A stretch of 64,000 nt of DNA from Raillietiella orientalis (GCA_036172245.1 JAYWIR010000009.1:372001-436000); one strand, 5' to 3'; shown: positions 6,776 through 61,239, counted from the first letter of the stretch. Numbers and translations: made by a program. The notes: generated by a model not told the origin, from the letters alone.

Positions 6776-6778
6776 TTC

Positions 6779-18780: not shown

Positions 18781-18842
18781 CGATCAGAGATCTGCTAGTG
18801 TCGCTTCCCAGGAGACGGAATTTTTAATCTCTGTGAGTGGGG

Positions 18843-30950: not shown

Positions 30951-32408
30951 GCGTGCTCACGAGATATCCTCCGGCTTTATGGATTTCTCTACAATTCGCT
31001 GCGTTTTCCGTTTCCTTGATCCTCTTCAAAGCATCTTGGAGGACTCGCCTGAACTCCCATAAAACCCGCTCCGAGGCTTGCGCAAATTTGTATCCACATG
31101 TCTTTCTTTTGCTTATGTACTTGGAGGTGGCTCGTGATACACCCACTTAAAACATGGCTGCCGACATCCATGGCTGCATTGGAAATCTCATTCTGCTTCC
31201 CTACAGTGAACCATCATGGGCATTCCAAACATGCTCTAGACCTAGAATGCTCTCATCTGTTGCATTCTCCAGTTAAAGCTCGGACAGTAGTTTTAGCAAA
31301 GATTCTTCCTTCTTCCATGGCCAGGATCAAATGGAGTCGATCGCTAAGGGGCACTTGTCTTGGAAGGACACAAAGGAAGCAACCATCAGCAATTCCTTAA
31401 GATGAAATGCTTGCGCGCCTTTGGGTAAACGTTGAGTTATAATAATATAGTGGATATAGAATCTGCGCTTAACATAGTTTCTGAGTTTCAAGAACCACGG
31501 TCGAAAACGTCTCTGTACTTCTCATAGATGGAACGATGCACTCTTGGAATGATCAGTCGGATGGCAGGTTCTTAGCTGCATGATCGGATATCTCCGCTGT
31601 CAGCACAGTTTGCTGCTCGGTTTCAGGAAATAGGTGGCTTTCGAAGGGATTTCACCCTTTCTAAGAAACAGGGAAAAGGCTCGTTTGCTCCACGATGAAG
31701 CTGCTTTTTCCTGACCAGCTCAATTTCCTAGAGGCTGGCCGAGAAGGGAAGCACACTCTCCAAATAGAAGAAGAATCCAAATAGAGGCTAATCGCCTGCT
31801 TCCGCATTGGCAAGGCGCCGATTCAAAATGCTCCATCACGAGAGTCTCATTGAAAGGATTAAATGGGCCTCATCTAAGAGATTGACTCAGTCGGCAAGAA
31901 GGAAAGCAATCACTTGGGAGAGCTGCAGGGCTGCAGCAGAAGGAGGCTTTGTGATGGTGCAAATGAAGCGGATCAGAGTCTTGAAGTTCGAAGGGCAAAC
32001 TGAACGGGAATGTAAAGCTCCCTTTATCTTAACTCGCCCTAAGTGACGAAAATGGATCCCTTCACACTGTGCCCAAAGAAAGTGGAAACAGGCTCAATTT
32101 CTTTTTTGTACAACTCTGAAAGGAAGGACACTAAAAACAGAAAGGTAGAGAAAACCCATAACAGATGATTCCGACGGCCAGGAGTTGATATGATCAACCC
32201 CTGGCGACTCAGATCACAATGGTCTCTTGACGCATCGGGGAGTGCATCTGCATGGAGATTCTTGTTTGGGATTTCTTCATTGCTGAGCTTGTATTCTGAG
32301 GAGTCCATGAAATTTGCCATTTATGTTTCTTTTACTATTAGCTGCTTCAGTCCTTCACCCCTACTATCGAGAGCCCACTCCAGCCTGAACTGGTCGATCC
32401 AAAGAATC

Positions 32409-33200
32409 GCGTTGGCGGCCGCGTGGCTGCGGTCTCCGTGCGTGGTGCCAAGCATTGGGTTATGGTTGAGGGTTCAAATCCCGCCCGGGGAACAATCGAC
32501 GCTGAGAAATGGGTGCGTCGTGGGTTTCGAGTCCTCCCCGCAGGATGAACGCTGGTTAGCTTCAGGTGCGGCACCGGTGGAAACTGGATGCTCCCGTTGA
32601 CTGATGGGGATTGTCCACTAGGGTGCTTCCAGAAATTAAGAAGCCGATTCCCTTCTCAATTGCTACATTGGTTGTGAAACTGGAACCATCCCATCCCCTA
32701 AAAGAAAGACCTTCCATTGCGTACCATGGATCTGATTGATGCCCCCTCGAAGTGCTGCCTCTCCATAATTTCAGAAGCGCGCTGCTTCCTTCGGGAAGCG
32801 CCCATTCTGGGAAATTGGGAAGCGTCCCTTCGGGATTCTCTTCAGAGGAGGAAACCAGGAGCGGTTTCCTTGAGAAGAAGAAATGGGGAGCGGTTGCCTT
32901 CGGACAGAATAAGGAAGAGGTTCATTTCGAGGTTCTCTCTCAAGCGTGAGAGGGAACGGACTTCCTTCCAAGTCTTCCTAAATTCGAAGGGTGGTCTCCG
33001 GAAATTTTCCTTATCACTCGAAGAGTTACACACACCCTCGGGTGGCGTGGTCAGTGTCAAAGAGCTTCATGAGCTCCTTCCAAGGAGGCGAACGGTTCTG
33101 CAGTACTTAGCAACTCCCCCCTTCTTCCACAAAAAAAAAACAGAAAAAAAAAAAAAGCTGGAGGGCAGCGAAAACAGAAGAACTCAATAAGATTTCCAAC
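32409..33200 (+). mobile_element. tRNA-headed SINE
   Basis: The head is gcgttggcggccgcgtggctgcggtctccgtgcgtggtgccaagc...ggttcaaatcccgcccgggg, followed by the family body and A-rich tail. Confidence 0.88.
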
Positions 33201-35262: not shown

Positions 35263-37149
35263 CTTTTTCTCTCTTCCACTCAGCCACAACCGAAATGTTT
35301 GGCACTTTGTTTCCTTCCATTACAGAGCTATTCTGCAAAGATGGAGCGGTGATTTTTATTGACAAGTGTCTCATTACATTCAGTGATCATGACTGATGGC
35401 AGGTGCAACAGCTGACGATGTCACGTAGCGATTTCTTCGATGATTCTGTATCTGCACATCTTGTCAGCTCCATCCCTAGTTTGTGCTGATCGAACGAGCA
35501 TGCGGTTCAGTGGAACCTCATCGATAAAGCTATGCTCTGGAAACCTCAGGTCATCCTCTTTACAGGAAGTGCTTAGACGCAAGAGGCTGTTTTATGCGAG
35601 TCGTGGTTTCACTTGATGTAGGTCCACAGAAGTCTGGAAAAATTTGCATGTTTCCTCCCACTGTTTCATTCTTAGGCCAGAGATGATGTCTCTCTTAATG
35701 TGGACATCAGCATCAGAGCCTTCGAACGTGAGATTCGAAGGTTTGGTTTAAAACAAAAACTACGTTACTGTTTGTCTTTTCTCTACCCATTTTCTGCAAA
35801 CACTTACACTATTTAAGAAAAAAAAAGAAAACAAGAAATCCACTCTACAGCTTTAGTGTGTTCAATTTTCCTTACCAAGATGTCTACAACACCCAGAGAA
35901 TCACCATTCTTCTTTGGCATTGAAGTCTCAAGAGCAGTGCCTCGTTTGCTTTCCTTTTTGGCCTCCAGTACTTCCGGGGTATCCATGTCAGATGTAACTC
36001 TTTCGGTCACCTCTCGGAGCCAACTGATGGAGAGTGATCCTTGCACCGGAGAAGAGCTCTATGGGAAAAGTGTGGCTACTGCAACAACCTCTTGCAAGAT
36101 CTCCTTGCGTGTAGTCTGAACTTGAAGGACGATACCATTCAGTTGAAGTCCAGCAGCAAAGACGGAGGCAGAGACAGCGTGAAGAATTCCATGGTCATTC
36201 CATTCGCACGGGGTTTTGTTCTCGTGGGAATGGAATCTGGACTCCTGAAAAAGCAGTCAGAGAAGACTCAAGAATTCCTACTTTCCCCCGAGAAGTCTCC
36301 AGACGCTTTCGATTCACTTTCTGCTCACTGAGTCATCACCAGTTGACATCCAGATGCAAATGAAAGACATGAAAATTCACGTAAGCTTGAATCAATAATC
36401 TGGAACACTCTAGTGAACAGACTAAACAATAGACCATTTCATCACTTTGCTATCCTATGAAGGGCACACAGAAAGCTGTGCATCCTGAACACTGAGTCAG
36501 AATGAGTACCAGCACATGTTTTAGCTGTACTGGATGTTGGTGCACACCATCCATCATTCTCTTCATGTTTTCGGTCTCTGGACGGGAAATCCGTATCACT
36601 AGTGCTCCCAAGAAAGCTGCTTCTCCTTTGTCAGAGAGCGAAAGGGAAAGTTTCCTGTAGTTGGTCCCCCTTGCACTGCCGTACTTCTTCAGGCACCACC
36701 GCTGAGTTCTTAACAGGGAGAGGTGGAATCGAATGCTACAGTGACTCTATTTTCTGGAACACAAGGATCACTCTGAGTTTCAAGTGCTCTCCTGAAATCA
36801 ACCCTTTCGAAGCTACCAAAATCATTCTCTTTGTTTCGCTTCCTTAATCAATTTGAGCGGATGGTCCTGTCTCTTGCTAATGAGATCGTAAATTCGAACG
36901 CGACTACTGAGGATCAGTGATCATTGTGAGTCAACTGAGCATCTGCACGTTCGGTACTTAGCGCTTCGTGTCAGTGCTGTCCTTGCACTGGCAGTAGTTC
37001 TAATTATGGACCATCCACAAAGGGATAAATGATAGAAACACAGGGATCCAATTTATCACTGTGAAACCAGTCCACTTCATTTTCCATTATTCATCTATCT
37101 TCCTGAATCTTTCAACGCCTCTCCTATGGTACTGTTCCCAATGAGGATT

Positions 37150-39690
37150 GGTCTTTCCTTTCCAGGTAAGTGGCCTCGTAACAGAAACGAGAAGATAGTC
37201 AATAGCTAATGCAGGTGAACAGCTCACATTGCATTGATGCTGGAAGATGTCCACCGTGTGTGCCAGCGAGGAAGTCCACACAAAGTATCCTGGCTAAGGG
37301 ACAGTCTTGCTGAATTCAACAATCAAAATTACCTCTAGGAGAAACAGCGACCCCAGATCCAGATCCCCCTGCTTGCACATTTCCATACTCTCTTTCAACA
37401 GGCGGCGCACAATGGTGTAGCCTCTGCACACTACGCATCTCCATGAACACCATGTACTGAGAGAGGAAGTGTTCCCAAGCACGGAACAATCCAATCACAT
37501 TCGCAGTTGCTGTTGAACTGCGGGACGACACCTCCGAACATGCTGTTCAGCCTCCTCCAGAGGCACGGATTCTTCGTCTCCCGCGACACCATCGCACCAT
37601 CCCCTTGCATTCTCGCGGAGAGGGAAGGTGCATCCGAGGACCCCAGAAGCGGCGAGGACCATTTCCTCCAAGAAGACTGCATCTAGGCTCATATTCACCG
37701 CCTCACCACCGACACTTCTAGTAGCAGACAAGCAGGAAAATGCGCTTGCCTCTTCCACTTCTACCACTTCTTTCCCGAAAAAGAGCGCGGCGGCAGACCC
37801 GGCTTGGCGCTGTCCGTTCAAAGCGGACGGTGCGCCCAGCCAGCAAAGGTTCTTCGTGGTTTCCACGCTACGCCGAATGCGCGGGCGGTGACGGCGCACG
37901 AAAGGGCTCCAACACCCTGTCCGACCTGGCATGGTTCTTCGGTCCCCACGGTTGCCCGCGAAGCAACTCGACGCCGCATTATCATCGTCGTGAGAGGAGT
38001 AGAGAGATCCACCGCCACTCGACTGGCTGTCACATTCCGTCACTTCCGACGCATTTGCTTGGAAACCAGCTTCCCAGAAACGGTGTGGCCTTTCGTGCAC
38101 TCGGACCGTCGTCGTTCCTGAAGAGCTTCCCATCCGCTTTTCGTCCAGAGTCCAGGTCGCTGCAAGAGAAGCAGACGTCACCCCGAACCAGATGGATTCG
38201 CGAGACGAGCTCGAGGGCCTCCAGCCGAAGTGGCATGGGAGGCACACAGGAACTTTTTGCGCACGACATCCACGTCTGCCTCGCTGCCTCTGAGCGCGTC
38301 CTGGGCTCCTCCGACCGAGGGTGCTCGCCCGGGAACGCCGGATCTCTCGCCTGAGCAGCGAGGTCTCCAGCATCTTGCGCGCTTGGTGCAGCAGGTTCGG
38401 ACCGGTCGTCTCCGCGACCCCACGCCCTGCACCCGGCGCAGCTCTCCTCTTGCCTCCCTCTGCCTCGTCGCTTGGTCTTTGCACGCAGACGACTCGCCGA
38501 TCTCCCCCTTCCCACTCTCTGGAAAGCGTGCGGGACTCACTTCGGACTTACGAGGGGCTGCAGCTCGTGCGTGTTCGTCCTCTCAGTCTTGCATTGAGAG
38601 GGCGCTGGCGTGATCTCCACGTGTCCGGACCAATTCTTGGAAGTGGACGAGAGTTCAGCATCGAGAGAAGCGTCCCGGCCGAGATGCAGACCGGGATGGA
38701 GGCGATGAGGATGATCCCTGAAGGTGCGCACCGGACAGGGACGGGGGGAGAGAGCGAGCGCACCGACCGCTGGCTTGGAGCTGGTCTGACCGCATCCGCC
38801 CTGAGGTGGCGTTAGGTCTACTGGGACCGTGTAGCCGCGCCTCCGGTGCGAGCAGCGCCCGGCATTCCCTTCCCAGTGGATCGCGTCCCCGAAGCCTTGT
38901 TGAAGGTGCAAGGTGGCTATGGAAAGGTTCCCGCACCTGCGGCTGGACTGTGTCGCAGGCCAGATGCAGGACACTGCCGATTCTTCTTGAGCGAAGGACC
39001 TTCCCACGAAGTCTGCGTGCCGGCGGCGTTTCGTCCCACTCCGACTGCCCTCCGTTGGCTGGAGTGTCAGTCGCGGCGACGAAAGGTCGCTCACCTACAT
39101 GGGGGTGGGGGAGAGGTGGCCGCATTTGGCTGAAGAAGTCGTGAGGGCGCTCGTCCTTTCCCTGCGCCGGCTCCGAGGAGGACGAAAGGGCCGTTCCACG
39201 CTCCTTCCCCCTTTTCGTCGGTTCCTTGCCCACTGGCTCCCGCTGAAGACTTGGTCAGTGACCGATTTGCGTGTCGGCGATTCCTCCCCACGGACTTGTC
39301 TCGGTTTCCCTTCCTTGGGGACTGGACTCTTAATCTGCTTGCTCATTTTCAATGGGCGACCGTGGTAAAATCGTTCCGCATGGAGATCACGGCGGTCCGA
39401 GCGGCTCCAAGGAATGGGGACCACACCCTCTTCCATTTCTTCTCTCCATTCCTCCGCGAAGAAGTGATCGGCGTTTCCGAAAATATGGAGTGGTTGCAGT
39501 GCAGGCTTCGGGAAGTTGGAGTGCCCCTGGGATGCTCGTGCAGTTGTTACAGAGCGGTCCATTCGGAAGCTCATGTGAGCGAGTTGCTCGATGCCATGAT
39601 GCGCTGAGATTGCTTGCATTTCTGGTTTCAGGTGAGTCACCATGGTGATGGCTGTGTGCTGGCAGCTGGGGAGGGTGCAAGCGGGATCGT
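37150..39690 (+). mobile_element. Second degenerate Ty3/Gypsy pol relic (RT-RNaseH-integrase)
   Basis: It contains inverted-repeat arm 2. The upstream flank independently gives RT-like PYSLSTGGA (PFGL.NAGA) and RHLRT, leading into LFSLLQRHG. Confidence 0.6.
37541..39686. repeat. Arm 2 of the 2146-bp near-identical inverted repeat (partner 903-3048)
   Basis: Reverse complement of 903-3048. The ORF track shows mirrored, near-identical translations. Confidence 0.97.
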
Positions 39691-43200: not shown

Positions 43201-43714
43201 GCGTCTCCAAGGCGAATACGACGAGGAATCAAGTCAAAACCGACCGGAGTGAAATCCACACAAGGCCACATTGAAAGTCATTTTCTTGCACAGGGCACTG
43301 CCCCTGTTCCCTGCCCCCGAGTTCGGATCAGACTTGGGATCAGCCTGCATGCAGGTGAGTGACTTGAACCTCCCTTTCTCTGACTGGCTTCCCAGCTTCC
43401 CACTCTGCACGTCCTCTTACCACACAGCCCGGAGGTTTCTGACCTGCCTTCCGGCTCCTGGTTCCCTGAGACGATGGCTGAGCATCGTCCAGTGTCCCCA
43501 TTTCCCCAGCATGGTCCCGAAGGAGCTTTGTTGCCTTGGGCGGCGCTCCCTTTCTCTCTGCATTTACGAATTGCCTTGTCGTCTCCGCGTTCCAGAGAAC
43601 CGAGCTTGACCACCTTCTGCTTCAGGGAAAGGGTGTGTGCTCCTGTGCATCTTTTTGGCAGATACCGGTATGGCCTTCGTTTCCTGAATTTCCCCGTGTG
43701 CAAGTGGGGCGTTT

Positions 43715-43967
43715 CTTTAGTGGCAAATTGGATAAAATACACGACATACTAGTAAAAGAGGTAAGAAAAATGGTTGGTAGGAATGAAGCACCAACGGTTG
43801 GAATAATTGATAGTCAGTCTGTGAAAATGATTCAAAAAGGGGGTCTAGAAGATATGATGCTGGCAAGAAAAAAAAAAAAAAGGGAGAAAACGCCATATTG
43901 TAGTATAGATACGATAGATAACAGCCTATGTTCATAGTGCAAGCATTCAAGATCGCGATGGTGCTCT
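43715..43967 (+). pseudogene. Bacterial IS5-family (IS1031-like) transposase, central DDE fragment
   Basis: GKLDKIHDILVKEVRKMVGRNEAPTVGIIDSQSVK...QKGG, then a frame change at aaaaaggggg, then RYDAGKK..GRKRHIVV..VHSASIQDRDGA. The DNA is strongly AT-rich relative to its flanks. Confidence 0.9.
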
Positions 43968-44053
43968 AAGAGCATGTCTGCAAACTTAAAAATGAGCTAA
44001 TTTGTGAAGCATAATGGTGATCATATTAAAGAAAATATTAGTTTTCGAAGTAA

Positions 44054-44230
44054 GAACCTGTCTTGAAAAGGAATGAGGAAGAGAGTGCAATGAGGTCAGC
44101 AAAAAAAAATAGGAGATAAAATGTATCCAAGTGCTGTAAGTGCCAAGGAATGGACAATTTTAGAGCCACATGTTGCACAAGGGGTAATAGGACGACCAAG
44201 GAAGCATAACATTAGAACGGTGATTCATGG
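44054..44230 (+). mobile_element. Left end of a second IS5-family element: IR-like end, Shine-Dalgarno and transposase N-terminus
   Basis: taa|gaacctgtcttgaaaag is followed by aggaga (44111-44116) and an ATG at 44121. The ORF reads MYPSAVSAKEWTILEPHV...GRPRKHNIRTVI, the typical YPS(D)...EW..L...GRP motif. Confidence 0.85.
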
Positions 44231-44699
44231 TCATAAGCCAGATTGGATGATTTTGGATTTTCTAGCTAATGGTACTCTAGTAGACTACTCTCACTCTTGC
44301 TGCCAAAAATATTGATCAAGCTACAGAGGTAGCAAATAGCATTGCAAGTCGTTGTTTTAGCTCTGAATGTGTTTTTGTAGGATAAGAACTTTGCAGAGCA
44401 AGTATATAAATTCATTAAAGTCTGTATTGATGGCTCTGATTCGAATATTTTCACGTTTGAGTTAAAATTTCAGTCAAATCGTTTTAAATGTAGCAACACT
44501 TCCATGATTTTGGCCTCGGTCCTTCGGGATCCAACTCTTCCGTTCATGTTCAGGCTTATCTTCCTGCCTCGTGGTTTTCCGTTTCCGCTCATACTTCTGG
44601 ACGTTTTCCTCCAGTGTCCAAGCGGGCAGCTGCAAGGCCGTGGCCGCGCTGCTGACATTCCCATTTCAGGAGTCATTCTCTGAAGTCGCACCTGTGGGT

Positions 44700-47600
44700 T
44701 ATCGGGTATGTGTGTGCTTGTCCCATTTGTTCCAGACATCCTTTGGGTCAGGCGGCTTTTTACGGCGACCATTTTTCTGCGACGACGAGGCAAGAGGTTT
44801 TGGCGCTTCTGCCGTGAGTACGGCCCCCAGGAGAACTAACCTGAAGCTTGTTGGCGCCAGAGCTCCTTACACATTCCTACTTCTCTCTCCACTGGGCAAA
44901 GTACTTTCAGAAAGTCTTCTTGTAAGTGATGGAATTCGACCATGGAGATGCGCAGCAATGGCGAAGTTCTCCTTCAATATCCATTCGTGTTGACGAGGGC
45001 ATCAACCAGGGAGTGACCGTAGAACGTAGAATAAGATGCTTTTGCTCTTTGTAAGCCAACAGTCCGCTGGTATGGTGAGAGACTCTCTTCCACGGCACTG
45101 TCAAATTGACTCATTTGGAAGGCCGTCTGAACCTGGGAGCTGCTCTTCCATCTGCATTCAATTTAGGAAAGGTTCTGTTACGAAATATTGATCTGGAGGC
45201 CCTACATTATTTCAAAGTCAATCAATCCATCCTCTTAGTGGTTTCATGATCCGTGAATATACGAAGAGATGGTCATTCTTAAGGAAACGTCTGTAATTTC
45301 CTGTTTGAATAAATCATCTTCCTCCGCTGCATAGAATTCTAAGATCTGCTTCATCAAGAACTGGTTGAGGGATGGATGTACCGTGAGCCAGATTGATGCA
45401 CCGGGTGTCCTATTCGGTGGCTTTAATGACGATTACGTCGACTATTGTATGCAACCATCAGCTGCCTCGTTTTTTTCCAAATACAATCACGCAGCATCAA
45501 GATCCTTCAGAACTGCATCATTAATTAGATCCCGGGATCCCAGTGAGCCAACAGCAAAAGCATGAATCGTCTGGAAACTCCATGTGAGAGCAGATTGGCA
45601 AGATCTTCTTCATGCTTCCGTTCTTTTCCAGTACGAGCTGTACTGGATGCTTCTTCACCATTCCCAACTCGATATGAGACGTCCAGCACAACCACCTTGT
45701 TGCCTTGCTGCGGGACCAAATCCGGTCGCGAGGAATCCAAGCCAGGGACTCTTTGATCTCAACCAAGAGACTGGGAAAAGATAAAGTGGTCTTCTTCTTC
45801 ATCAAAGAGAATTCGTGTGAGGCAACACTGCACGTCATTGCGGACAATCCTCATCACCCCGCAGGATGCCTCCTGTCTTGCCATGAGTGCGCACTCAGAT
45901 TTGGAGACTTCCACCGTGGCTTGACGATCCTACTGCATTCTTTCCATCTTCCGAGAACTGCACTGATCAGCCCATGAAGAAGGTTTGTAGTCCTATCGGC
46001 TGTAAACATCCCCATAATTCTTGCCATTTGGTTCCATATCCGAATGATGATTATTGCTTGTGCCCCTCAACCTCATTATGGGACTCTCTTGAGAGATGAA
46101 AAAGCCAGTGACTGCACAACTTCGATGACTACCAACTAGATCTGGTTCAGTGCTCACTCCATCGGTCGATCATGCGTTCCACGAAAGTTCTGCTTCAGAG
46201 AAGGAGTTTGCTTCAGCCTTGGGGTTTCTCTGATTTCCGCACCATCTGCGTTGTTCTAGGATGGGGATGAGGCTCATCTCATGAAGTGATATCAGAAATA
46301 AAGAAGACACGCACGCGCTTTCTCCTTGACATTCACAGGGCTTTTCTCCAGGGAGTTCGAGGAAAGCTGGTCCAAGCTGGACAGAAAGTTAAACTTGCTG
46401 TGGCCAGTGACGACTGCAAATACTTCCACTAGTGTGAGAAGATAAGTTCAGCATCCAGAGATCCTGAGAGATGCGAGATAAAAACAAGCCAAATTCTGCT
46501 GCGACCATAATGTAGAAAAGGCTGAAGACAAGGCGTGCCAGACTCGAGTTGACTTGGTCGATCGTAGGTGGCTAACGATGATGCTACGAACTCAAAATTT
46601 GTGTCTTTGTTCCTTCCTACGATGCAGAGAGGGCAGGGAATTTAAACCTGACCGTTCGCACATGTAGGAGTTTCATGCAAGATTTTTGTTGTACGGCCTG
46701 AGTGTTGGGAGGAGAATTCTAAGCGATTTCCACATCCTCGTCATGCAGTGAAGGGAACGATACGGCATTGAGGACATTGTGAGCACCGTTCATCCTGGTC
46801 GTTGGTCCAGGATGTGCGTTCGATCCATGCTCCCCTTGTGAGTTATATTGACAAAGCATACCGGTTTTCCGGTTGTCCGTCCTTACGAGAGAGGATTCGA
46901 GTCCTGCCATGCTTCTTTCAGCGCTGCCGCAAAGTGCACACCGAGGGCAAACGCAGTCGAGAGCGACGAGTCGGGACTCACGTCCTTTCTTGCTCTCCAT
47001 CGCAGCCGCATCAACCGATGTGGGCTCCAACTACGGAGGGTGGCTGCCTTGATTCGGGAAAGAATTCCTGTCTCCCCGCGAACGGTAGTACCTGGTTGCA
47101 GGAAACCGTTCGAACGTGGGGACAGTTCGGCATGCAACGCTCCCAACAGGAACGAAGGTTCCTGTTTGGGTGTTACAGAAGTTGCACGCTCCGAGAGATC
47201 CTGGAGGATCCAAGGAAGAGAGCGTGGGCAGGAAGAACCCCCCTTGCTGCTGCGCTGGCCTCCCTAATGGAAGATCAGGACAGCGATGTTGCGGCGAAGT
47301 GGGAGGTTAAAGTAACCATCTCCGGAAAGGATAAGAAGCAGGGAGAGTGGAAGACGGGTCAGCTGACTGACGCTGCCACCCCGAGTACGCCTCCCCATGG
47401 ACTTCTGCGCTGGGGCGCGCTGCTCGATGTTCCCATTGAACATCTGAAGTGGCCCCCGGTGCTCATGAACACTTCCACCCTCCCCTTAAAATGGCAGGAG
47501 TCGGCTCTCCTGTTGCAGCACTGGGGACCCCCCTGCAACGCCTGCCGACACCACTTGACCTGGGGGGCGGTGAACCCCAATTGCGTTAGGTGTGGGGAAT

Positions 47601-49600
47601 GGGAGTCCCTCCCCCACCTACTTGTGGATTGTGTTGCCCTCCGGCCCCTTTGGTCCCGCTTTGCCGCGGCCATCGGAATCCCCTGCGGCAACCCCAGGGA
47701 CTCTCTAAAAGCCCTCTTCGTTGCCGACGCCCTTCGGCCAGCAGCCTCATTAGCAGCTCTGTGCTGCCTACGCGGGATCGTTGCCGCTTGGAGCAAGGCT
47801 ACGGGGGGACCTCGCGATAAGGGTGCCATCCAGCACGCCTCCGAATTTTTGAGGAGGGCTTCGAGATGGTCCCACCTCGATCCTGGAATGCAGAAAGAGC
47901 TTGCCGGCATCCTGCGAAGGATGCAGCGGCCCCAGCAGCAATTGTGATCCCTTCCCGTACCCTCCCACTTTTTTTTTTCTTTTTGTTTAGTTTTTTTTGT
48001 TTATCCCCCTTCCCCCTGCTGCCGTGGTGGACCGTACCGGTCTGCGAACCGGTGACCCGGCAGGCTCTGTGTTTCCTCGTGCGTGGCTGGAGCACTGGTC
48101 CAGTCACAGCACGTCTCTGTTGAAGTTTATTTCTTAATAAATGCCCCGGCGAAACCCGGGTGAAAATCGAGAGCGACGAGTCTTCGAGTCTGGGTGGCAT
48201 CTTGAATGGACCACTTGTATTGGTTCGCTGGAGGCCACCCGACTCGCGTTCTTTTGCTTCGCTTCATTGGTTGAATGGAAGTCCAGAAATTAGAGGTCAT
48301 TGGACTGATCTAAGAGAAAGCAGTCCGCTACCTATTCGTCTGAGAAACCCACTTTCGTTAGACGTAATTGGACTCTTAATTGTAATTAGGTTTTCATCTA
48401 TAGACTCGAGAATTTCCAGTAATAGAATTGGTGTCTCGTGTAGATGGTTTTTTCGGTGTTTTGAAGTGCCATGGATTCTTTTGTCGGTTCATTCAGACTG
48501 AAGGACATCCCAACGGGAAACCTTTCAGGTACGCGAGTTCGACGCCAGCAGAAGTTGAGCACGAAGCACGCAATTTGTTGCATGGAAGCCCAATCAAAGG
48601 ACTTCTTTGGAACTGTTTAAAAATCGGAATGTACATTGAAGGAGCAATGCAACTCGCATCCAAAATTTGGAAAAGCCTATTGGATAAAAAAAAGAAAAAA
48701 ATTATTAGGCTTGTGAAAAGAATACATGCACAAAAGAAGTTGATGTCACCACCACTGGAGGAACAGGATGTTTGTAAACACGGGACTTACGCACAGCCAC
48801 TGATGGTATCTTCCAACAGGTGCGTCAGTCTCCACAAAAGAGGAGCCTGAATTAATATAACAAAACGTACCGTGAGAGCACCTCAGCCTGTTAAGAATTG
48901 CTAAAACGATGGGTTCCTGATGCAACATTCTATAACCTCTACTAAGGATGATTTTCATTGCTGAATAGTCAAAAGATGCTTTTTATTATGCGACTGACTC
49001 ATCACTTTAATGGCTGGCCACCTCTTCCAGCCAGCCTCCAGATTTCATACATCACTCTCTCTATTTATAGGTCTCTCCGGTCTCTGTTTATAGGATTGTG
49101 CATCACTCTTAGAATGAAGGTGATGAACAATCCTATGAATATTCTCAGTGCACTCTCAATGATGGAATCCTTTTGGATTCCTCTGCTATCGCTGCTTCCC
49201 TTGCAGTTGTCTTGTTTCCGGGTTTTCCTTTTTTTGGTTCTCTAAGTGCTGAAGAACTGTTCGCCTCCTCGGAAGGGGATCTCTTTGACTCTATCCACGC
49301 CATCCAAGGGTGCATGTAACTCTTCAAGTTACGGGGTACCTGGGGAGGGACCACGCTATGAATCCAGAAAAAGCTCCTTATTCCTGGTTGTCTCCAAACC
49401 CGTTAATTCAAAGGAGATCTTCACCGTATCTGGTACTAGCAGACCTTCTCTTGGAAATCAAGCTGAAGCATGGAAACTCTGTAATCTAGGCTGATGGAAA
49501 AGTATCTCCTGGAAAAGCATAGAGTGCCCTAAATCCTGGAAATGCAGCTTGTAAATCCAGGTAGGAAGACGCTTTCTTGAAGACTGATGACTTTGTAGCC
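44700..49600 (-). mobile_element. Degenerate Ty3/Gypsy pol relic, interrupted by the young LINE at 46973-48166
   Basis: RT-like SEPIQVV...SRLRL runs across the TSD junction, then YNSQGEH (FNTP.GRY). RNaseH *DYKP (TDHKP) and integrase WIP...TSHIELGMVK follow. Confidence 0.4.
46973..48166 (+). mobile_element. Young 5'-truncated L1/Tx1-like LINE with an open ORF2 C-terminus and a 16-bp TSD
   Basis: The direct repeat tcgagagcgacgagtc lies at 46957-46972 and 48167-48182. The frame is open to 47947 and includes CVRCGEWESLPHLLVDC. A T-rich 3'UTR ends in aataaatgccccggcgaaacccgggtgaaaa. Confidence 0.92.
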
Positions 49601-51449
49601 CGCATCCTGACATCAAGTCGAGGATGGCCATGAATCATCTCTATTTATTATGATGAATTCTGCAGCTCGCCTCACACCAACGTCGAAGAGCAGCATCCCA
49701 AGATTGCTGCTCTCCAATTTATTCTTACAATTCTTGAAATCCGCAGACTTCTCCAGAATTTCCAGTTGCAATCTCTCCTTGTTTTTTTTTTTTTTTTTTT
49801 GGCTCTTCAGATTCCCTTTGCTACCCATCGTCTCAATCGGTTTCCTATCTCTTTAAATAATGCATCAGAAAAACTTCGCATCTGTTTGCATCCTCCCAGG
49901 GAATCGATTAGAGCCGCGTTTCTTCTCAGCAGCCTCTTCGGACCATTACGATAGAGCCGCATCGAAAGTTTCTTATTCTTGTGGCACTTTGCTAGCAGGT
50001 GCAGGAGGAATCTGTCGGCATGCACGCACACAGAGGCAGGGTGGGTAGGCACTGGAGAAAACCTACTGGTACCATCTTTCCTGAATTCGGAAGAGTCAGA
50101 AGATCATTGTCTTCACGAATTTTCGGAAGCTGCCTACCTGGAAGAGCCGCTACCACTTGGCTTTCTCTTCCTAGAAATCAAACGCCCGTTGATCCATCCA
50201 TCGAACACCTCTGTCTGCCTCAGCAGGGTGGAAGCTCGTCGAAGGGTTTTTTCCCTTAGGCGTTCCTTCAAGGAGGGGCAGGCATCCATGCTGGCAACCT
50301 GATCGCTCGTCAACGGAAGGGGTCCAGGACCGCGGATCTCTCTCTATTTTCCATCTGCCGGTGGCAGCCGCCTTCGTGAGTGAGTATCTGGACCAGTGCA
50401 TCGGGAACTATCAGCTTACCGACGATAGTGCCGCAGGCAGCGTTTGCAGGTGTGCAGCAAGGTCTCCTACACTCCCACTCCAGTCTTCAGGTAAGAGGCT
50501 ACGGTGTGTCTATGGCAAGACTCCTACTTATGGTGGCATCTTGTAGACTGTTTTGGGGTATCCATGGATTTCGAGGACCGCTGGCTTCCCTATGGCACGC
50601 ATTTGAATTCGGCAAATCTTGATCTTCCGGTTTGAAGCTTTGGAAATGGAAAAAGAAAAAAAGAAAATCAGGGGAGTGACAAAGAGATTTACTCTGAGAT
50701 GGATATCCACCTAGGGCATCATGTCGTGTCTTGTCGTTGATGGAATTGTAAACTGCAAAGAACTGGAGTGCGTTCGCGCTAAACCGCTTAAAGAAGTTTG
50801 GGATGTTCTTGAAATTCATGTAAAGTCCATGCGACTGCCAAAGAGACACAATGTGTACTTCCTGGGATGTGATAATGTGAATGGTCATCCGTTCAAGTCA
50901 CAGGGTACTGCCATAGCGCCATTTACCTACCTAAAACGAAAACAAACAAACAAACGAAACAAACCAAGAGGAGGAAGGAGGAAATCAATTTTCGCTTTCA
51001 CTCTACCTAGAAATATCGCGCTCATAGCCATTGTCCCTCTAGAAGTTCGCTCTTCCAGCTCCCGCCCTCAGTGATCGGTAAGCTTTCACGAAAAAGGAAG
51101 ACTGAGCACCTTCAGCCAGCGGATGATCCAGCTCAAGCAGGCACGGCCTTGTCTCATCTCATAGCACCCTGACCACGGGAGGGACACGCCCAGTGCTTGA
51201 TAGAATCACGCGCCGACTCATTTCACGCTCGATACCGGAAGCGTCTGGGTTCGGTTCGGGAATTGGCATCTATCGGACGACTGGTTTTCCGACAAGGGAG
51301 TCACTGATTCGTCTGCTCGGTGCTGCTTAATCTGCTGTCCGTGTACGTAGTGCTCACAGCCTGCCGCATGCTCAGGAGACGTGTGATCCAGGAGGAATCT
51401 GCGAACCGCATCCAACTGGATGGTCATCGAGAAGCATGACGAGCTGCCG

Positions 51450-52750
51450 GAGAGAACTCCGGATGAAGAGGGCTGCTTGCGGAGACTGCGAGTTCCAGAG
51501 CAGTAGAAGAGTCGTCATAGTGGCTCTAGGGAGCCCCGGGATACGTGAAGAAAGCAACTATCGACGAGTGACTCCCCATTTTTCTGTAGAAGGCGTTCCT
51601 GCATCAGTAAGAGCGAGCGCCATTTCCCGCCAAAGTAAAGGGAAAACTCAAGACGCCTAAGAGACGAATGGAGCTCACGAGGAGAGAAATGGCACGCTCA
51701 AACATATCCTCACGAAGAATACTGGAGGCGCACTATGGATCATAGGCCAGGATAAAGATGCTCTCAAAAAAAAAACAGCCTCTCCAGTAGGAGGTCAGGT
51801 GAATTGCTTAGGATTTGAAGTACTTTGTTAGATCTAAGCAAGTAGCACCACGGCTTCATCATTGGTATAGAAAAGAGATCCTTGAATGTGCGCGTTTAAG
51901 ACACAAACGTGCCATTCGAATAAAGGATTGGCCAACGGGAGCTTCCTCGAGTCCCGTGTTCTGGAAATAAAATTCATCCTGCCGTCCCACTGCTGAAAGC
52001 TGAAGAGTCAGTTACTGCAGTTCGATATCTCGAGATGGATGAGTGACGGATTCCTCCAGCAGCTGCTCGAAGAAAAATAGGCCGAAACCTTGTTCAAGTA
52101 GTGAGAGTCTGGAGAGATCGATATCGATAGGCAGTTCGTACGCATTAGACAGTTTTCCTTCTGACACGAACGGATGCTCTTTTCACCTAAGATACTGACA
52201 TGTTTCCTCGGGTCATCTCGTTGCCAGCGCTCTTCGCCTCCGAGACTTGACTTTTTGCAAGCAGAGGGCTGAGGAAGACACTTCTGACTTTACCAAGGAA
52301 GCAGTGAAGAGGACATGAACTGTCATTTCTTGCTCTTGTTGCTTGTGCTATTTGAGTAGAAGAGACCTACTTCTCTTCATTTCAGATCGCTCAGCAGCAT
52401 TGACGGCAAAGCAAAACCGAAGACGCTGCCGATTGCTGCATGAACAGTGAGATCTTCTTTGGTGAAGAAAGGTTAAGGATAGTTTGTGGAGGAAGAACAG
52501 GAAAAAAGGTGTCTTTATTGTGGAGACAAAGGAAAGACAAGAGTTGGTCGGTCATTGTCATTTGCCAGGGATCCTCTGAGTTCTTTCGAGAATGTTCTTC
52601 CTTTGCATCCGCCAGATGGCATCACCTCGTCTCTCTTTTAGAGACGAAGGTCGTCATAGGGAAGGCATTCCCTTTGTATGGAGCTCTTGCATGTGTGCCT
52701 CATGCCGCGGAGGTAGGACAGAATAGAAAGGTGCGCAGTTAACGGCTCTG
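51450..52750 (+). mobile_element. Degenerate LINE RT relic (RTE-like?)
   Basis: ESNYRRV (NYR.I), tactttgttagatctaagcaag (F.DL.KA-like) and a G..G..SPVF-like region. Confidence 0.3.
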
Positions 52751-54167
52751 AGCTGAGCACCAAGGCGCTCTGCGCAGGGGGTAGGAAAACTGTTGCGAGG
52801 CGCCCTCACACGTGTTGAAGGGCGATAAAGTCGTCTGGCGCGTGCAGGGAGGACCGAAGCTGTCTCCGCATTTGCCCCGGTAGGTGGTCACAGTCGCCCC
52901 GGCCCACTGTTGCCGCCTGCGTGCGTTGCACGAAAAACTTCAATACGGCGGCAGAATCTCTGGGCGTTGCCACTTCAGCGGGAGTTTGCAGCCTCTCGCC
53001 AACTTGGATTGGATCTTCGCGGGGCATTTCAAGGAGAATGGGATTCTAGTTGATCGTCGCCGTCGGCGAGTTGTCGCTCCTGGCAACCAGCAAGGTTGCT
53101 ACGCGATTTTACAGGACACTGTCCCCCACTCTTCCCGCAGGCCACAGTCGTTACCCTCCCGTGCGGAGAGTTGTGTTCGAATGTATCGCGAGCAGCATCC
53201 CAAAGGATGAGCGTTACGATGCAATCGGCACTGCTGGAGGAAAGTTTGATCACCTCTCCATTTTACACGTTGCCTTCGACCTTGAGCATCATTCTCATTA
53301 TCAGCAAATGATGAACGCAGTCCAGGTTGAAGATAGGGAGTGCATAGCGGAGTAGCAGTGACCAGAAACTCCTCCAGAGTCTTCCCTCATCTTCCTTTCC
53401 TTTCCAAGGAAGCTCCGGATACGCTTGCGATGGATGCCCTCGCCAGGCTTCTCAGGAAGGATTTTCGGTAGAGCAGGAGGATGCCAAACTATGGCACCTT
53501 GTGTTCACTGGGTGGACTTGGGCAAGGATTTGTCCCGCTGCCGGGTACATCGAAGACGCATCGAAATCTCTTTGGTACCGAAGACCAATCTGAGACTGCA
53601 TTCCATATCTAATTTCTAAATTAGCTTTTCCAACTGCAACTGTGACGCAACGCTGGTGGACTCAGTGAGGTCTCGGAATTTCTTGTCGCTCTCCAGATTC
53701 GAAATCGATGGCACTCCGAGTTCGTCTTCACCTGAGATTGCCGGCGAAATTTTTCGCGTGTGACCTCGGAGGTCAGCGAGCACCTAACTCTTGTTGATCG
53801 TGGTTGACAACTAGCTTTATGTGCACGCGAGTGGCTGTGCCAAGAGGAAGAGTTCGAAAGCTTTTCTTGCAGCAGTTCTTGTGCGCAGCCACGGATCGAT
53901 TAACGTGGAAATCACGGGCAAAACTTGAATGCGGAAGGCTATGCCCATGGGTGGAGTTAGGAACCAACGTCATGAGCAAGCGGCATCGGGACTCAGATTC
54001 TGGGAAGGCAGAAGGAGCTTGCTCGCCCACCTTTTAAAGACAAGCAGATAAGAATTTCTTTCTTGATGCCAAACTCTAATTTATGAAATATAGGATTCGT
54101 CCTGCTCCCATAGATGCAAAGACAAACTTCTCAAGAGTTCAAGAGATCAGAAAAAAAGGAATCGTCC

Positions 54168-54610
54168 GCGTTGGCAGCCGTGTGGCTGCGGTCTCCGCGC
54201 GCGTGGTGCCAAGCGTTGCGGAATCGAATCCCCACTCCTAGAGTGAGTGCGTCGTGGGTCTCAATTCCCCTCCGCAGGATGACTCTGGCTGGTCCACGGA
54301 CTTCGGGTGTGGCATCAGTGGAAGTGGGAAACCGGATGCCCCGTTGGCTGGACGAGATTGGAAGTTGACCTCCGTGGAGTCGAGTCGAGGAGTCGAGGAT
54401 TCAGTTCCCCCCAGAAATTTCCTTCAAAGACAACCAGGGCGAGGATTCCAGGAACGGACTCTTTTCCCCGAAGCCTGCCCGGGTCCATGGAGTGGCTTCT
54501 TCCTAACTTGAAGAGTTAACACGCCCCCTTGGGTAGCCTGGAGTAGTGTTAAAAGAGCTTCGTGAACCCCTAGGCGAACGGTTCTTAGCGAACAAAAAAA
54601 AGAAAAGGAA
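54168..54610 (+). mobile_element. tRNA-headed SINE with internal deletion
   Basis: The head is gcgttggcagccgtgtggctgcggtctccgcgcgcgtggtgccaagcgttgcggaatcgaatcccc. The minisatellite is largely missing but the 3' region is present. Confidence 0.85.
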
Positions 54611-55809
54611 TCAAGGGCTGCTCTTTCAACAAAGCTGTCCAATCTTTTCTTGGTAAGTCCGAGAACAGAGCCGGGTTTCATGATGCAGATCTGTGCAGAC
54701 GAAAGATGTGAGCGTGAAGATAAAAGATGTGTGCAGAAGAAAACACACGTGTTTCAAGCAACTCTTGTAAACAGAGAATAAAGTGCTGATTGTACATCAG
54801 CGTGGGAAGGCTTGAACCATTCACTGCGACTTGCATGATGCTCAACCGCACTGGCATCCACCATCACTCGAAAACATGAAGCATGGACGTCCTACATCAA
54901 CGATGACCAGCAAAATTTCAGGATCCCTGTGCTCCTGACGTCATGATGAACACAAGCACATCGTGGTGAAGGTAATGTGTGACTGTTGATCACCCGGTTC
55001 ATTGGTGACGGAGGTCTTTCCTTCCATCCATGACTGGGCTTCGAGTGAGCAACTGAAGTCTAGAGCTACTGAAACGAGAGTCCCCGAAAGGGACCCAAGG
55101 AAAATGCGAGCGAGCGCCGGTGCAAACTCACAGGGGGAAAGATTGTTTCGGGAACAGTCTTCAGGGCGAGCGCTATTGAAAATTTAGTCCAATCGGAAAG
55201 ACTTTGGCCTTGGACAGGAAGCCTGAACAGGTGTTTCCATATCTTCGATCCGACCAGCTGAAGTACACCTTGGTACGAGGGACGGCAAAATGAAGTGGAA
55301 TGGGCTCAAGACTTGTGAGCCCATAGCCCCCAAGAGTGATAGGAAAACTGGTTTTCAAAATCTGAGCACGAAGATCCACTTGGAAAACGCAGATGAAATC
55401 ATGAAGATAGTGCGGCAGTGTGCATCTGCTGTTTGAGTTTTGCTGCTCCATGATATTCACAAGAAGTTCCCAAGCAAAGCAGAAGAAGCACCAGTGATCA
55501 TTCGGTACTAAACACGGGCTACTTCAGATATCCCGTTAACATCCCAGGGTGGTTTCTAACTCAAGGGACACGGCAGTGAAAAGAGATGGATATTTCCATT
55601 GACAACCCGGCAATTCCATTGAGCAGTTCTGACGTATCGCAGTATCCGGGCATTTCTTCCCGAGATTGCATGCCTGCTCTGCATTCCATTCCAGTTGAAA
55701 CTTATGGGATTTGGCAAGTTACTTTGCAATTCGAAGAGTTTCGATCTCTCTCATTCTAGAAAGCAGTTTATTGGCAATGCGATGTGTTGGCATCGTTTTG
55801 TTTGCGCGA

Positions 55810-56370
55810 TGGGAATCCTCTTGGGTTGTTTTCGCTGCTTTCTTAGCATCCTTTTTTTCTTTTGCTCTCCCTTCTTATTGGTTCGTCCAGTGCTAAAGAA
55901 CCGTTTGCCTCCTTACAGGGTCACTCATAAAGCTCTCTGACACTGTCCAGGCCAGCCGAGGGTTCGTGTAACCCTTAGTCACCAGGTAACCCTGGAAGGA
56001 CCACCTTATGAATCCAGGAAGACTATGGAGGAAGGAGTCCGTTCCTCTTAAGCTGGGTAAGGAACCTAGAAGGAACCTCTTCCTTATTCTCTTCGGAGGG
56101 ATCCCCCGGTTTGTGAGGCCGCTCTTCATTTCTTCTCCAGGGGGAATCCAGAAAGGATCCTCTCCGTGTTTTCACTCCTCTGAAGAGAACCCCGAAGGAA
56201 CCCCAACGGCCGCTTCCAAATTCTTTCTGAGAGATCGCTCCTGGCAGGGAGCAGCGCGCTCCGCGCTCTGGAGAGGTGTCAGTCCACCAGCTCCACGGTA
56301 CGAGATGGACGATTCCAATTGCGCAACCAAAGGTCGACTGTCAATCCCAGCCGCGTGGTCAGTCGTGTGA
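55810..56370 (-). mobile_element. SINE, 5'-truncated (body and tail)
   Basis: ccaccttatgaatccaggaag, the minisatellite units and ccagctccacggtacgagatggac match other copies. Confidence 0.8.
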
Positions 56371-56419
56371 CTCCGATTTCCTCGAGTAATAGAGTATTTG
56401 AAGGAACATTCTTATGAGG

Positions 56420-61233: not shown

Positions 61234-61239
61234 GAGCCT

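What the first reader, a model, noticed from the sequence alone, without database searches (positions are those of the whole stretch)
43715..44470. Bacterial IS5-family DNA embedded in animal transposon-relic DNA (probable endosymbiont transfer)
Seen: a sharply AT-rich patch of about 0.75 kb encodes two IS5-type transposase pieces (IIDSQSVK..KGG / YDAGKK..GRKRHIVV / HSASIQDRDGA, and MYPS..EW..GRPRK), with an AGGAGA Shine-Dalgarno 4 nt before the ATG. Both flanks look like eukaryotic TE relics. Established: these motifs define IS1031-like IS5 elements, which are abundant in AT-rich arthropod endosymbionts such as Wolbachia. Inference: this is lateral transfer from an intracellular bacterium. 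The expanded poly(A) run and extra indels suggest decay in the host genome, which argues against fresh contamination.
Basis: partly seen in the sequence, partly recalled or inferred. Interest (0 to 1): 0.7.

Follow-up and report, generated by a model that had tools for sequence, protein, structure and literature searches.

The report
Dead Wolbachia DNA in animal genome
A 0.8-kb AT-rich patch in otherwise animal-like DNA is a broken mosaic of Wolbachia-type insertion-sequence pieces plus a fragment of a Wolbachia phage gene, an ordinary example of symbiont DNA captured in a host chromosome.

Summary
Window 43718-44511 (794 bp, GC 0.36; flanks 0.48-0.51) is bacterial-type DNA.

It is not one IS5 element. 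It consists of four pieces:
- A, 43718-43969 (+): IS nt 274-526.
- B, 43970-44055 (inverted): the last 86 nt of a second IS copy.
- C, 44056-44229 (+): the first ~173 nt of a third copy, with its ribosome-binding site and ATG.
- A fragment at 44219-44511: the 3' end of a phage WO "gp10"-like gene.

B and C each begin at an exact IS terminus that follows TAA. TAA is this IS's target duplication, so the nesting arose by transposition inside a bacterium.

The closest relatives are all Wolbachia or other Anaplasmataceae. DNA identity is 80-81% for A and C, 97% for B, and 94% at aligned bases for the phage piece. Other phyla reach at most 48% amino-acid identity.

A second fragment, a 66-bp purH piece at 31431-31496, is 66/66 identical to an Anaplasmataceae genome.

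The two host junctions lie inside the IS body and inside the phage gene. This fits end-joining capture, not transposition into the host.

No reads could be laid, so physical integration rests on the assembly alone. The "TE-relic flanks" claim found no support.

Verdict: a new member of a known kind (Wolbachia-to-host transfer). Interest is low to moderate.

The parts
43718..43969 (+). Fragment A. It corresponds to nt 274-526 of the ~850-bp Wolbachia-type IS5-family element and encodes transposase residues ~71-160, which include two DDE aspartate motifs (IIDSQSVK and DRDGA). It is broken by the A14 run (net +5 nt), several small indels and two in-frame stops. It ends in ...GCTCTAA.
   Evidence: blastn gave 79-80% identity over 260 columns, E 8e-59 to 3e-64. 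tblastn gave 64% identity to P0005 residues 71-134 and 65% to residues 120-159.
43868..43881 (+). A14 homopolymer inside fragment A. Wolbachia copies have A7-T-A3 at this place, so the frame is lost here.
   Evidence: Sequence read; alignment to L003.
43970..44055 (-). Fragment B. It is the last 86 nt (nt 850 to 765) of a second IS copy, inverted. Its outer terminus (GAGCATGTCT...) abuts the TAA that ends fragment A. On the minus strand it encodes the transposase C-terminus ...LTSKTNIFFNMITIMLHKLA.
   Evidence: 84/87 identical (97%) to G077:C62 and 92% to G030. tblastn matched P0005 residues 216-253 on the minus strand, E 6.5e-5, with the convincing part at residues 234-253. The termini were defined from 41 Wolbachia copies.
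44056..44229 (+). Fragment C. It is the first ~173 nt of a third IS copy. It holds the left terminus (GAACCTGTCTTGAAAAGG...) directly after TAA, the ribosome-binding site AGGAGA at 44111-44116, the ATG at 44121, and 36 intact codons (MYPS...GRPRKHNIRTVI).
   Evidence: blastn gave 78-81% identity (Mesenet L051 81%, E 2e-41). tblastn gave 75% identity to P0007 residues 1-36. Alignment.
44219..44511 (+). The 3' end (about the last 90 codons) of a phage WO 'gp10'-like gene of unknown function. It is joined to fragment C at a point that is not an IS end. Relative to an intact copy it carries a 10-bp insertion and an 8-bp deletion, and both shift the frame.
   Evidence: 88% identity including gaps, with 17 mismatches in about 283 aligned bases, to G050 (L092) and G083, E 1e-110. 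The gene is homologous to the Mesenet ORF P0125. That ORF matches Wolbachia phage WO records AB036666 (gp10, hypothetical), HQ906663 and KY695239 at 49-53% aa identity.
31431..31496 (+). A separate 66-bp fragment of a Wolbachia-type purH gene (reads LSYNNIVDIESALNIVSEFQEP), 12.2 kb upstream of the main patch. It is AT-rich and sits in GC-rich surroundings.
   Evidence: 66/66 identical to G068 and 98% to G077, G048 and G097. 65 of 98 Anaplasmataceae genomes match, at 77-100% identity. In G077 it lies in a 510-aa ORF that I read as purH from its sequence; that name is recalled and was not checked against a family library.

Best explanation
The patch is a dead piece of Wolbachia-type (Anaplasmataceae) chromosome lodged in an animal genome, i.e. 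a nuclear Wolbachia transfer.

What is shown:
- In the donor bacterium, an ~850-bp IS5-family element (copy A) had been hit by a second copy (B) at a TAA site.
- B had in turn been hit by a third copy (C) at a TAA/TTA site.

What is inferred:
- A stretch of this nested IS cluster and a piece of a phage WO gene were joined at a point that is not an IS end. This happened either by deletion in the bacterium or by ligation of two fragments during capture.
- The product was built into a host chromosome break by end joining, the way mitochondrial DNA fragments are captured.
- The IS transposase played no part in entry into the host. Both host junctions cut through the inside of an IS and the inside of the phage gene.
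- Nothing in the patch can work any more: no complete transposase, no paired IS ends, and frameshifts and stops throughout. It is a molecular fossil recording present or past infection of this host lineage.

A 66-bp purH fragment 12 kb away shows that the region holds more than one such capture, or the remains of a larger one.
For: Origin:
- The closest full-length proteins to the shared IS family are three Wolbachia IS5-family transposases, at 67-68% identity to P0001. The next best is 57% (582 of 652 candidates had E <= 0.001).
- In species-representative genomes, 43 of the 79 loci kept are from one Wolbachia genome and 1 is from Ca. Mesenet longicola, at 82-90% aa identity to P0005. The other 35 loci, from other phyla, reach only 37-48%.
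- 43 of 98 Anaplasmataceae genomes match the patch at E <= 1e-5.
- Three unrelated kinds of Wolbachia sequence are present: IS DNA, a phage WO gene, and a purH piece that is 66/66 identical.

Nesting made in a bacterium:
- IS ends and the TNA duplication were defined from 41 Wolbachia copies.
- In the window, both B and C start exactly at an IS terminus that follows TAA.
- A similar terminus-into-IS-3'-end junction, offset by 4 bp, exists in genome G082.

Host context:
- There is no other Wolbachia match in the rest of the window apart from the purH piece.
- 1 of 12 long ORFs is an SK potassium-channel piece (Pfam E 3.9e-28). It is most like an insect SK protein, 53% over 173 aa.
- The window holds old interspersed repeats.
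- 0 of 128 ORFs have a Pfam hit.

Not transposition into the host:
- Junction J1 falls at IS nt 274, and junction J5 falls inside the phage gene.

Broken state:
- Frame loss at A14, two in-frame stops, a 10-bp insertion and an 8-bp deletion.
Against: - No reads or host genome were available. Integration therefore rests on one assembled contig.
- Wolbachia genomes themselves hold nested and decayed IS copies and pseudogenes, so the internal damage does not prove residence in the host.
- The patch GC (0.358) equals that of the Wolbachia IS (0.361), so no drift towards host composition is visible.
- The excess of AT-to-GC over GC-to-AT changes is only 40 to 24, p = 0.06.
- Fragments A and C are 19-20% from every reference, while B, the phage piece and the purH piece are 0-6% away. 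Most of the A and C divergence must therefore predate transfer, or reflect an unsampled IS variant.
- The host taxon is not identified. The SK match to an insect is only 53%.
Confidence: 0.8

Rival explanations
1. Assembly artefact. DNA of a live Wolbachia in the sequenced animal was wrongly stitched into a host contig.
For: No read evidence could be obtained. Some fragments are nearly or fully identical to extant genomes: purH 66/66 and fragment B 84/87. Patch GC equals the Wolbachia IS GC. Nested and broken IS copies also occur in live Wolbachia genomes.
Against: It would need four false joins in one contig: two around a 794-bp piece and two around a 66-bp piece. Each would enclose a fragment far shorter than a read or a bacterial gene. 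No intact bacterial gene is present, and there is no further bacterial DNA in the remaining ~63 kb.
Confidence: 0.1
2. The IS itself carried the DNA in. Transposase-mediated transposition from the symbiont into the host chromosome took flanking Wolbachia DNA along, as proposed for a Wolbachia segment in a butterfly chromosome (PMC10083226; whole text read).
For: IS DNA makes up about two thirds of the patch. The published proposal shows that the idea is current.
Against: Neither host junction is at an IS terminus. J1 is at IS nt 274 and J5 is inside the phage gene. The two IS termini that are present (B and C) face other IS DNA, not host DNA. No complete transposase and no paired ends are present. 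I saw no TNA duplication at the host junctions when reading the sequence.
Confidence: 0.03
3. A eukaryotic IS5-like transposon family (PIF/Harbinger, ISL2EU, or a domesticated IS5-like element) resident in the animal. On this reading it is not symbiont DNA.
For: IS5-related DDE transposases do exist in eukaryotes (recalled, not tested here). P0001 and P0003, from unnamed assemblies, carry related broken reading frames.
Against: All best matches are to Wolbachia/Anaplasmataceae at the DNA level, 80-97%. The patch keeps a bacterial ribosome-binding site. It is joined to a phage WO gene fragment. A purH fragment identical to a bacterial genome lies nearby. There is no other copy in the window.
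Confidence: 0.02
4. Remnant of one large ancient Wolbachia insertion. On this reading the purH piece and the IS/WO mosaic are what is left after deletion and invasion by host repeats, not small separate captures.
For: Two Wolbachia-type fragments lie 12.2 kb apart. Host interspersed repeats and a 2.1-kb inverted duplicate lie between them. The junction between fragment C and the phage piece looks like a deletion join.
Against: The purH piece is 66/66 identical to an extant genome and fragment B is 97% identical. This leaves little time for near-total erosion. The 12 kb between the fragments has no further Wolbachia match.
Confidence: 0.05

Closest known systems
Nuclear Wolbachia transfers ('nuwts') in arthropod and nematode genomes. 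Examples: Drosophila ananassae (PMC4299567), Brugia malayi (PMC3849323), and fossils in Dictyocaulus viviparus (PMC4046930). For all three papers I saw only the search listing and the start of the abstract.
   Same: Wolbachia-type DNA flanked by host DNA. It is AT-rich against its surroundings, fragmented, rearranged and pseudogenised. It includes mobile-element and prophage sequence.
   Different: This one is very small (794 bp and 66 bp) compared with the large transfers highlighted in those papers. The host here is unidentified and relatively GC-rich (0.52 over the window). Integration is not yet backed by reads.
'Sequence X' on Aphantopus hyperantus chromosome 7: a Wolbachia ISWpi4 with Wolbachia flanks inside a butterfly chromosome (PMC10083226; whole text read).
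   Same: An IS-bearing piece of Wolbachia DNA in an animal chromosome, recognised by its AT excess and by its nearest relatives being Wolbachia.
   Different: That case involves an IS481-family element said to be bounded by its preferred target sequence, read as IS-mediated entry. Here the IS is IS5-family and present only as three truncated nested pieces, and the host junctions are not at IS ends.
ISWpi1, the Wolbachia-restricted IS5-family group (PMC2515875; passages read).
   Same: IS5-family, Wolbachia-associated and multi-copy.
   Different: The published ISWpi1 primers do not match. 0 of 106 fetched loci have either primer at <= 2 mismatches, and the window patch has none at <= 5. ISWpi1 is described with two overlapping reading frames, whereas the relatives here are single ORFs of 254-255 aa. 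It is a different IS5-family lineage.
NUMT-type capture of organelle DNA at chromosome breaks by end joining (recalled general knowledge).
   Same: Short pieces of foreign DNA, sometimes several joined together, inserted without terminal repeats or target duplications and left to decay.
   Different: The source is an endosymbiotic bacterium, not the mitochondrion. The repair mechanism is inferred, not shown.

Membership tests
IS5 family insertion sequence (NCBIfam NF033580 type; Pfam DUF4096 + DDE_Tnp_1 + DDE_Tnp_1_2) | Transposase homology | tested here: met
   The window pieces are 53-75% identical at the aa level to Wolbachia transposases P0005 and P0007. P0005 scores 209.8 bits on NF033580, whose cut-off is 110. 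The pieces on their own give only DUF4096 at E 0.035, below cut-off.
IS5 family insertion sequence (NCBIfam NF033580 type; Pfam DUF4096 + DDE_Tnp_1 + DDE_Tnp_1_2) | One complete transposase frame with the full DDE triad | tested here: not met
   Only residues ~1-36, ~71-160 and ~234-253 are present. They come from three different copies and lie in two orientations. Residues ~161-233 are absent, and there are stops and frame loss.
IS5 family insertion sequence (NCBIfam NF033580 type; Pfam DUF4096 + DDE_Tnp_1 + DDE_Tnp_1_2) | Paired terminal inverted repeats flanked by a target duplication (TNA in the Wolbachia copies) | tested here: not met
   Single termini of B and C are present, each next to TAA. 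No element has both of its ends. The DNA derives from IS5-family elements but is not itself an element.
As I recall it: ~0.85-0.95 kb, GAG termini, 3-bp TNA duplication. | not testable with these tools
   The Wolbachia relatives are 850 bp, start with GAG/GAA and are flanked by TNA, which fits what I recall. ISfinder was not available.
ISWpi1 | Match to the published internal ISWpi1 primers | tested here: not met
   0 of 106 loci match at <= 2 mismatches, and the window patch has no match at <= 5 mismatches. The primers come from PMC2515875. This is a weak test, because the window lacks much of the element.
Nuclear Wolbachia transfer (nuwt) | Nearest relatives are Wolbachia/Anaplasmataceae and not the host or other bacteria | tested here: met
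Nuclear Wolbachia transfer (nuwt) | Flanked on both sides by host DNA in one molecule | tested here: inconclusive
   This holds in the assembled window: there are GC steps at 43717/43718 and 44511/44512, an animal SK-channel piece lies in the same window, and there is no other bacterial match. No reads could be laid and no genome is held.
Nuclear Wolbachia transfer (nuwt) | Present at host copy number and independent of live infection (read depth, PCR in cured animals) | not testable with these tools
   No sequencing run was listed.
Eukaryotic PIF/Harbinger or ISL2EU transposons | Best matches to eukaryotic DDE_Tnp_4-type transposases, with dispersed host copies | tested here: not met
   No such Pfam hit on the pieces. 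All best protein and DNA matches are bacterial. There is no second copy in the window. The host genome was not available for a copy count.

The most novel reading that the evidence does not exclude
The window samples a host region, or a whole host genome, that is peppered with very small and very recent captures of Wolbachia DNA: 66 bp identical to a living lineage, plus a 794-bp mosaic. The host has an unusually GC-rich genome and is not closely related to any annotated insect. The micro-fragments would then be a fine-grained record of ongoing germ-line bombardment by symbiont DNA. They could be used to date infection and identify the donor strain in a lineage where infection may be unknown.
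Probability: 0.3. Interest if true: 0.5.

Novelty: new member of a known kind. Interest (0 to 1): 0.3.

Why it matters
Wolbachia-to-host DNA transfer is well documented, so one more small dead insert changes no concept. Its practical value is threefold.

- **A marker of infection.** It records present or past Wolbachia-type infection of this host lineage.
- **A warning for annotation and contamination screens.** A bacterial IS hit inside a eukaryotic contig is not necessarily contamination, and PCR for multi-copy Wolbachia IS sequences can give false positives from such inserts.
- **Evidence on the route of entry.** The structure separates two layers of history: precise IS-into-IS transposition in the bacterium, then entry into the host that did not use the IS ends. 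This bears on the published suggestion that IS elements themselves ferry Wolbachia DNA into hosts. In this case they did not.

Tried and rejected
- **Pfam on the separate pieces.** Only a sub-threshold DUF4096 hit. The pieces are too short, so I moved to homologue searches.
- **blastn of the patch against plasmids.** No match. tblastn of the WO-gene homologue against plasmids also gave no match.
- **Whole-genome search of the window's own assembly.** No genome is held.
- **Sequencing runs for 43300-44900.** None was listed, so no reads could be laid and junction support stays untested.
- **Earlier findings of this scan.** Nothing by place, by sequence or by words.
- **Self-comparison of the flanks within the window, to find an 'empty site' or a repeat family at the junctions.** No other copy of either flank was found.
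- **Pfam on window ORFs, to test 'TE-relic flanks'.** 0 of 128 ORFs hit. In the earlier set, 1 of 12 hit, and that was the SK channel.
- **Rfam, tRNA and tandem-repeat scans of the window.** Nothing found.
- **Host identification from the SK-channel ORF.** The best match is one insect protein at 43% (53% by tblastn over 173 aa). The other 119 listed proteins that carry a species name are vertebrate, at 36-50%. This is too distant to name a host group.
- **Direction-of-substitution test for drift towards host GC.** 40 AT-to-GC against 24 GC-to-AT, p = 0.06. Not significant.
- **Pfam and NCBIfam on the WO-gene homologue P0125.** No family.
- **ISWpi1 identity by published primers.** No match.
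- **Family-wide search of window 1-20000.** 0 of 98 genomes matched, though only 3 candidates per genome were scored.
- **Not run.** The family-wide search was not repeated for 20001-43700 or for 44520-64000. Those parts were searched against only 2 to 5 genomes.

Full report

Yes. GC falls to 0.34-0.39 over about 43700-44600, in a window that averages 0.52. The patch has GC 0.358. The 1 kb on each side has 0.506 and 0.478.

AGGAGA lies at 44111-44116, four bases before the ATG at 44121. An A14 run lies at 43868-43881.

Pfam on the isolated pieces was nearly silent: DUF4096 at E 0.035, below the cut-off. The case therefore rests on homologues.

**2. What the IS pieces are**

A word-indexed protein search with the 73-aa middle piece gave 4 proteins with E <= 1 among 17 candidates. 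One was P0001, a 133-aa open frame from an unnamed assembly that carries both of the window's pieces in the normal order.

Searching onward with P0001 gave 582 of 652 candidates at E <= 0.001. The top three are Wolbachia 'IS5 family transposase' proteins of 254-255 aa, at 67-68% identity and 186-191 bits. The next best reaches 57% and 148 bits.

P0005 scores 209.8 bits on NCBIfam NF033580 (IS5 family transposase), whose cut-off is 110.

A scan of one genome per prokaryote species kept 79 loci:
- 43 from one Wolbachia genome (endosymbiont of Psylliodes chrysocephala), at 82-90% aa identity to P0005.
- 1 from Candidatus Mesenet longicola, at 90% aa identity to P0005.
- 35 from other phyla, at only 37-48%.

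Above about 50% identity, then, this IS lineage is confined to Wolbachia-type bacteria in the collections searched.

**3. Anatomy**

I compared 41 Wolbachia copies. The element is 850 bp, GC 0.361. Its termini read GAGCATGTCTTGAAAAGG... and ...CCTTTCAAGACAGGTTC, and it is flanked by a 3-bp T-N-A duplication.

The window maps onto it as follows:
- **Fragment A, 43718-43969 (+)**: IS nt 274-526, 79-80% DNA identity, E down to 3e-64.
- **Fragment B, 43970-44055 (inverted)**: IS nt 850 down to 765.
- **Fragment C, 44056-44229 (+)**: IS nt 1 to about 173, 78-81% identity.

Fragment A ends ...GCTCTAA, and B's outer terminus follows at once. B's interior ends ...GAAGTAA, and C's outer terminus follows at once. 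Two exact IS termini, each following TAA, are the signature of transposition of one copy into another. That requires an active transposase in a bacterium.

A comparable join exists in genome G082: an IS left terminus set against inverted IS 3' coding sequence, offset by 4 bp. This is supportive, but it does not prove common descent of the junction.

**4. The last 290 bp are not IS DNA**

Window 44219-44511 matches the 3' end of a 346-aa ORF in Mesenet (P0125). It matches two unnamed Anaplasmataceae genomes far better: G050 and G083, at 88% with gaps counted, 17 mismatches in about 283 aligned bases, E about 1e-110.

P0125 matches three Wolbachia phage WO records at 49-53% aa identity over at least 88% of its length. 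In AB036666 the gene is annotated 'gp10, hypothetical protein'. It has no Pfam or NCBIfam family.

Against the intact G050 gene, the window copy has a 10-bp insertion and an 8-bp deletion. Both shift the frame.

The join between C and this gene (about 44219-44229) is not at an IS end. The two sources read alike over a few bases there, so the exact point is ambiguous.

**5. How broken, and where did the damage occur?**

Fragment A loses its frame at the A14 run. Wolbachia copies have A7-T-A3 there, so the net change is +5 nt. A also carries several small indels and two in-frame stops.

Many Wolbachia copies (P0005, P0006, L003) read KGD.EDMM in the same frame as the window. P0007 keeps the ancestral GYDAGKK.

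Divergence from the nearest reference differs strongly between fragments:

| Fragment | Distance from nearest reference |
|---|---|
| purH piece | 0/66 |
| B | 3/87 |
| Phage WO piece | 17/~283 |
| A and C | 19-20% |

Uniform decay in the host cannot produce that spread. Most of the A and C distance must predate transfer, or reflect an IS variant that the 98 family genomes do not sample. A and B were already disabled in the donor by the nested insertions.

A polarised count at sites where all references agree gave 40 AT-to-GC against 24 GC-to-AT changes (p = 0.06). That is a hint of drift towards host composition and no more.

**6. Is it in an animal genome?**

No genome is held for the window, and no sequencing run was listed.

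The indirect evidence is as follows:
- The window has an SK potassium-channel-like stretch at 11780-12268 and 13171-13528 (Pfam PF03530, E 3.9e-28). It is most like one insect SK protein, at 53% over 173 aa. The vertebrate proteins I compared by tblastn reached 42-44%.
- That stretch has frame breaks. It may be a pseudogene, or it may reflect indel errors in the assembly.
- The window holds an old interspersed repeat family (copies 65-82% alike) and a 2149-bp inverted pair at 99.5% identity.
- 0 of 128 further ORFs of at least 105 aa hit Pfam.
- There is no tRNA, Rfam family or tandem repeat.

This is eukaryote-like non-coding DNA. It is not shown to be 'transposon relic' at the junctions, because the immediate flanks have no second copy in the window.

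**7. A second fragment**

I searched the rest of the window against Wolbachia-type genomes. There was one more hit, at 31431-31496.

This piece reads as purH sequence (LSYNNIVDIESALNIVSEFQEP). I recognised the gene by eye in a 510-aa ORF of G077. It is 66/66 identical to genome G068 and 98% identical to three others. 65 of 98 family genomes match it, at 77-100%, and the boundaries are the same sharp ones in the best hits.

A second AT-rich island at 35567-35967 has no such match. It serves as a control against composition-driven hits.

**8. Mechanism**

Shown:
- The donor type.
- The nested IS transpositions at TAA.
- The truncations.
- That neither host junction (IS nt 274 at 43718; inside the phage gene at 44511) is an IS end.

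Inferred:
- Fragments of symbiont DNA were captured at chromosome breaks by end joining, as happens with mitochondrial DNA.
- The C-to-phage-gene join arose either as a deletion in the bacterium or as a ligation of two fragments during capture.

The published idea that an IS carried flanking Wolbachia DNA into a butterfly chromosome (PMC10083226, whole text read) does not fit this locus.

An assembly chimera is unlikely. It would need four false joins around fragments of 794 and 66 bp. It cannot be excluded without reads.

**9. Comparison with what is known, and novelty**

Wolbachia-to-host transfers are common. [quoted passage not shown] Fossil and IS-bearing examples are also in print (PMC4046930 and PMC3849323, listings only; PMC10083226, whole text).

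The IS is not ISWpi1 by the published primers. 0 of 106 loci match at <= 2 mismatches. Its ISfinder name and group could not be checked.

The finding is a new member of a known kind. Its modest points of interest are:
- the clean two-layer history, with IS-in-IS-in-IS in the bacterium followed by end-independent capture in the host;
- the second, identical micro-fragment nearby;
- the unidentified, rather GC-rich host.

Supplements of the cited papers were not opened. They could hold the ISWpi19 and ISWpi4 sequences that would allow the IS here to be named.

**10. Verdict**

The origin is right, while the structure, the extent and the description of the flanks needed correction, and integration remains unverified.
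- Confidence that this is a genuine nuclear insert of Wolbachia-type DNA: about 0.8.
- Interest: 0.3.

Noticed in passing
window 31431-31496: A 66-bp AT-rich fragment that reads as Wolbachia-type purH. It is 66/66 identical to one Anaplasmataceae genome and lies 12.2 kb upstream of the main patch. Two such fragments so close together suggest either a genome rich in micro-inserts or one eroded larger insert.
   Followed up: yes
window 903-3051 and 37538-39686: A 2149-bp inverted repeat pair at 99.5% identity, GC about 0.6-0.66, with no Pfam hit on its ORFs. The arms lie 34.5 kb apart and enclose the SK-channel-like stretch and the purH fragment.
   Followed up: partly
window 11780-12268 and 13171-13528: An SK potassium-channel-like coding stretch, most like an insect SK protein (53%). 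It has internal deletions, stops and three frame switches around the pore (GYG) region. It is either a pseudogene or a sign of indel errors in the assembly.
   Followed up: partly
window 12505-14152, 17029-17608, 32410-33110, 55889-56309, 60609-61238, 63342-63966: Copies of an old interspersed repeat family, 65-82% alike, in both orientations and with no recognisable protein domain.
   Followed up: no
window 35567-35967: A second AT-rich island (GC down to 0.37) with no match to Wolbachia-type genomes. Its nature is unknown.
   Followed up: partly
P0005/P0006 versus P0007 (Wolbachia transposases); L003:1437-2286: Many Wolbachia copies of this IS read KGD.EDMM.(G/A)KK where a sister variant keeps the conserved G(S)RGYDAGKK. 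This looks like a compensated double frame change inside the catalytic domain, yet such copies are numerous (43 loci in one genome). Are they still active?
   Followed up: no
P0001 (133 aa) and P0003 (148 aa), unnamed assemblies: Open frames elsewhere carry the same IS lineage with the window-like reading KGGLE.MML. P0003 runs on into unrelated lysine- and glutamate-rich sequence. These may be further transferred or decayed copies.
   Followed up: no
L111 (G082:C55:1-400): An extant Anaplasmataceae contig in which an IS left terminus abuts inverted IS 3' coding sequence, 4 bp from the position of the window's B-to-C junction. It may be a shared nested insertion or an insertion hot spot.
   Followed up: partly
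L082/L088 (Mesenet G002:C47), L090, L091: The phage WO gp10-like gene has at least three copies or part-copies in Ca. Mesenet longicola, two of them at contig ends. In C47 it lies beside an ORF that I took for a phage baseplate-type protein by eye only.
   Followed up: no
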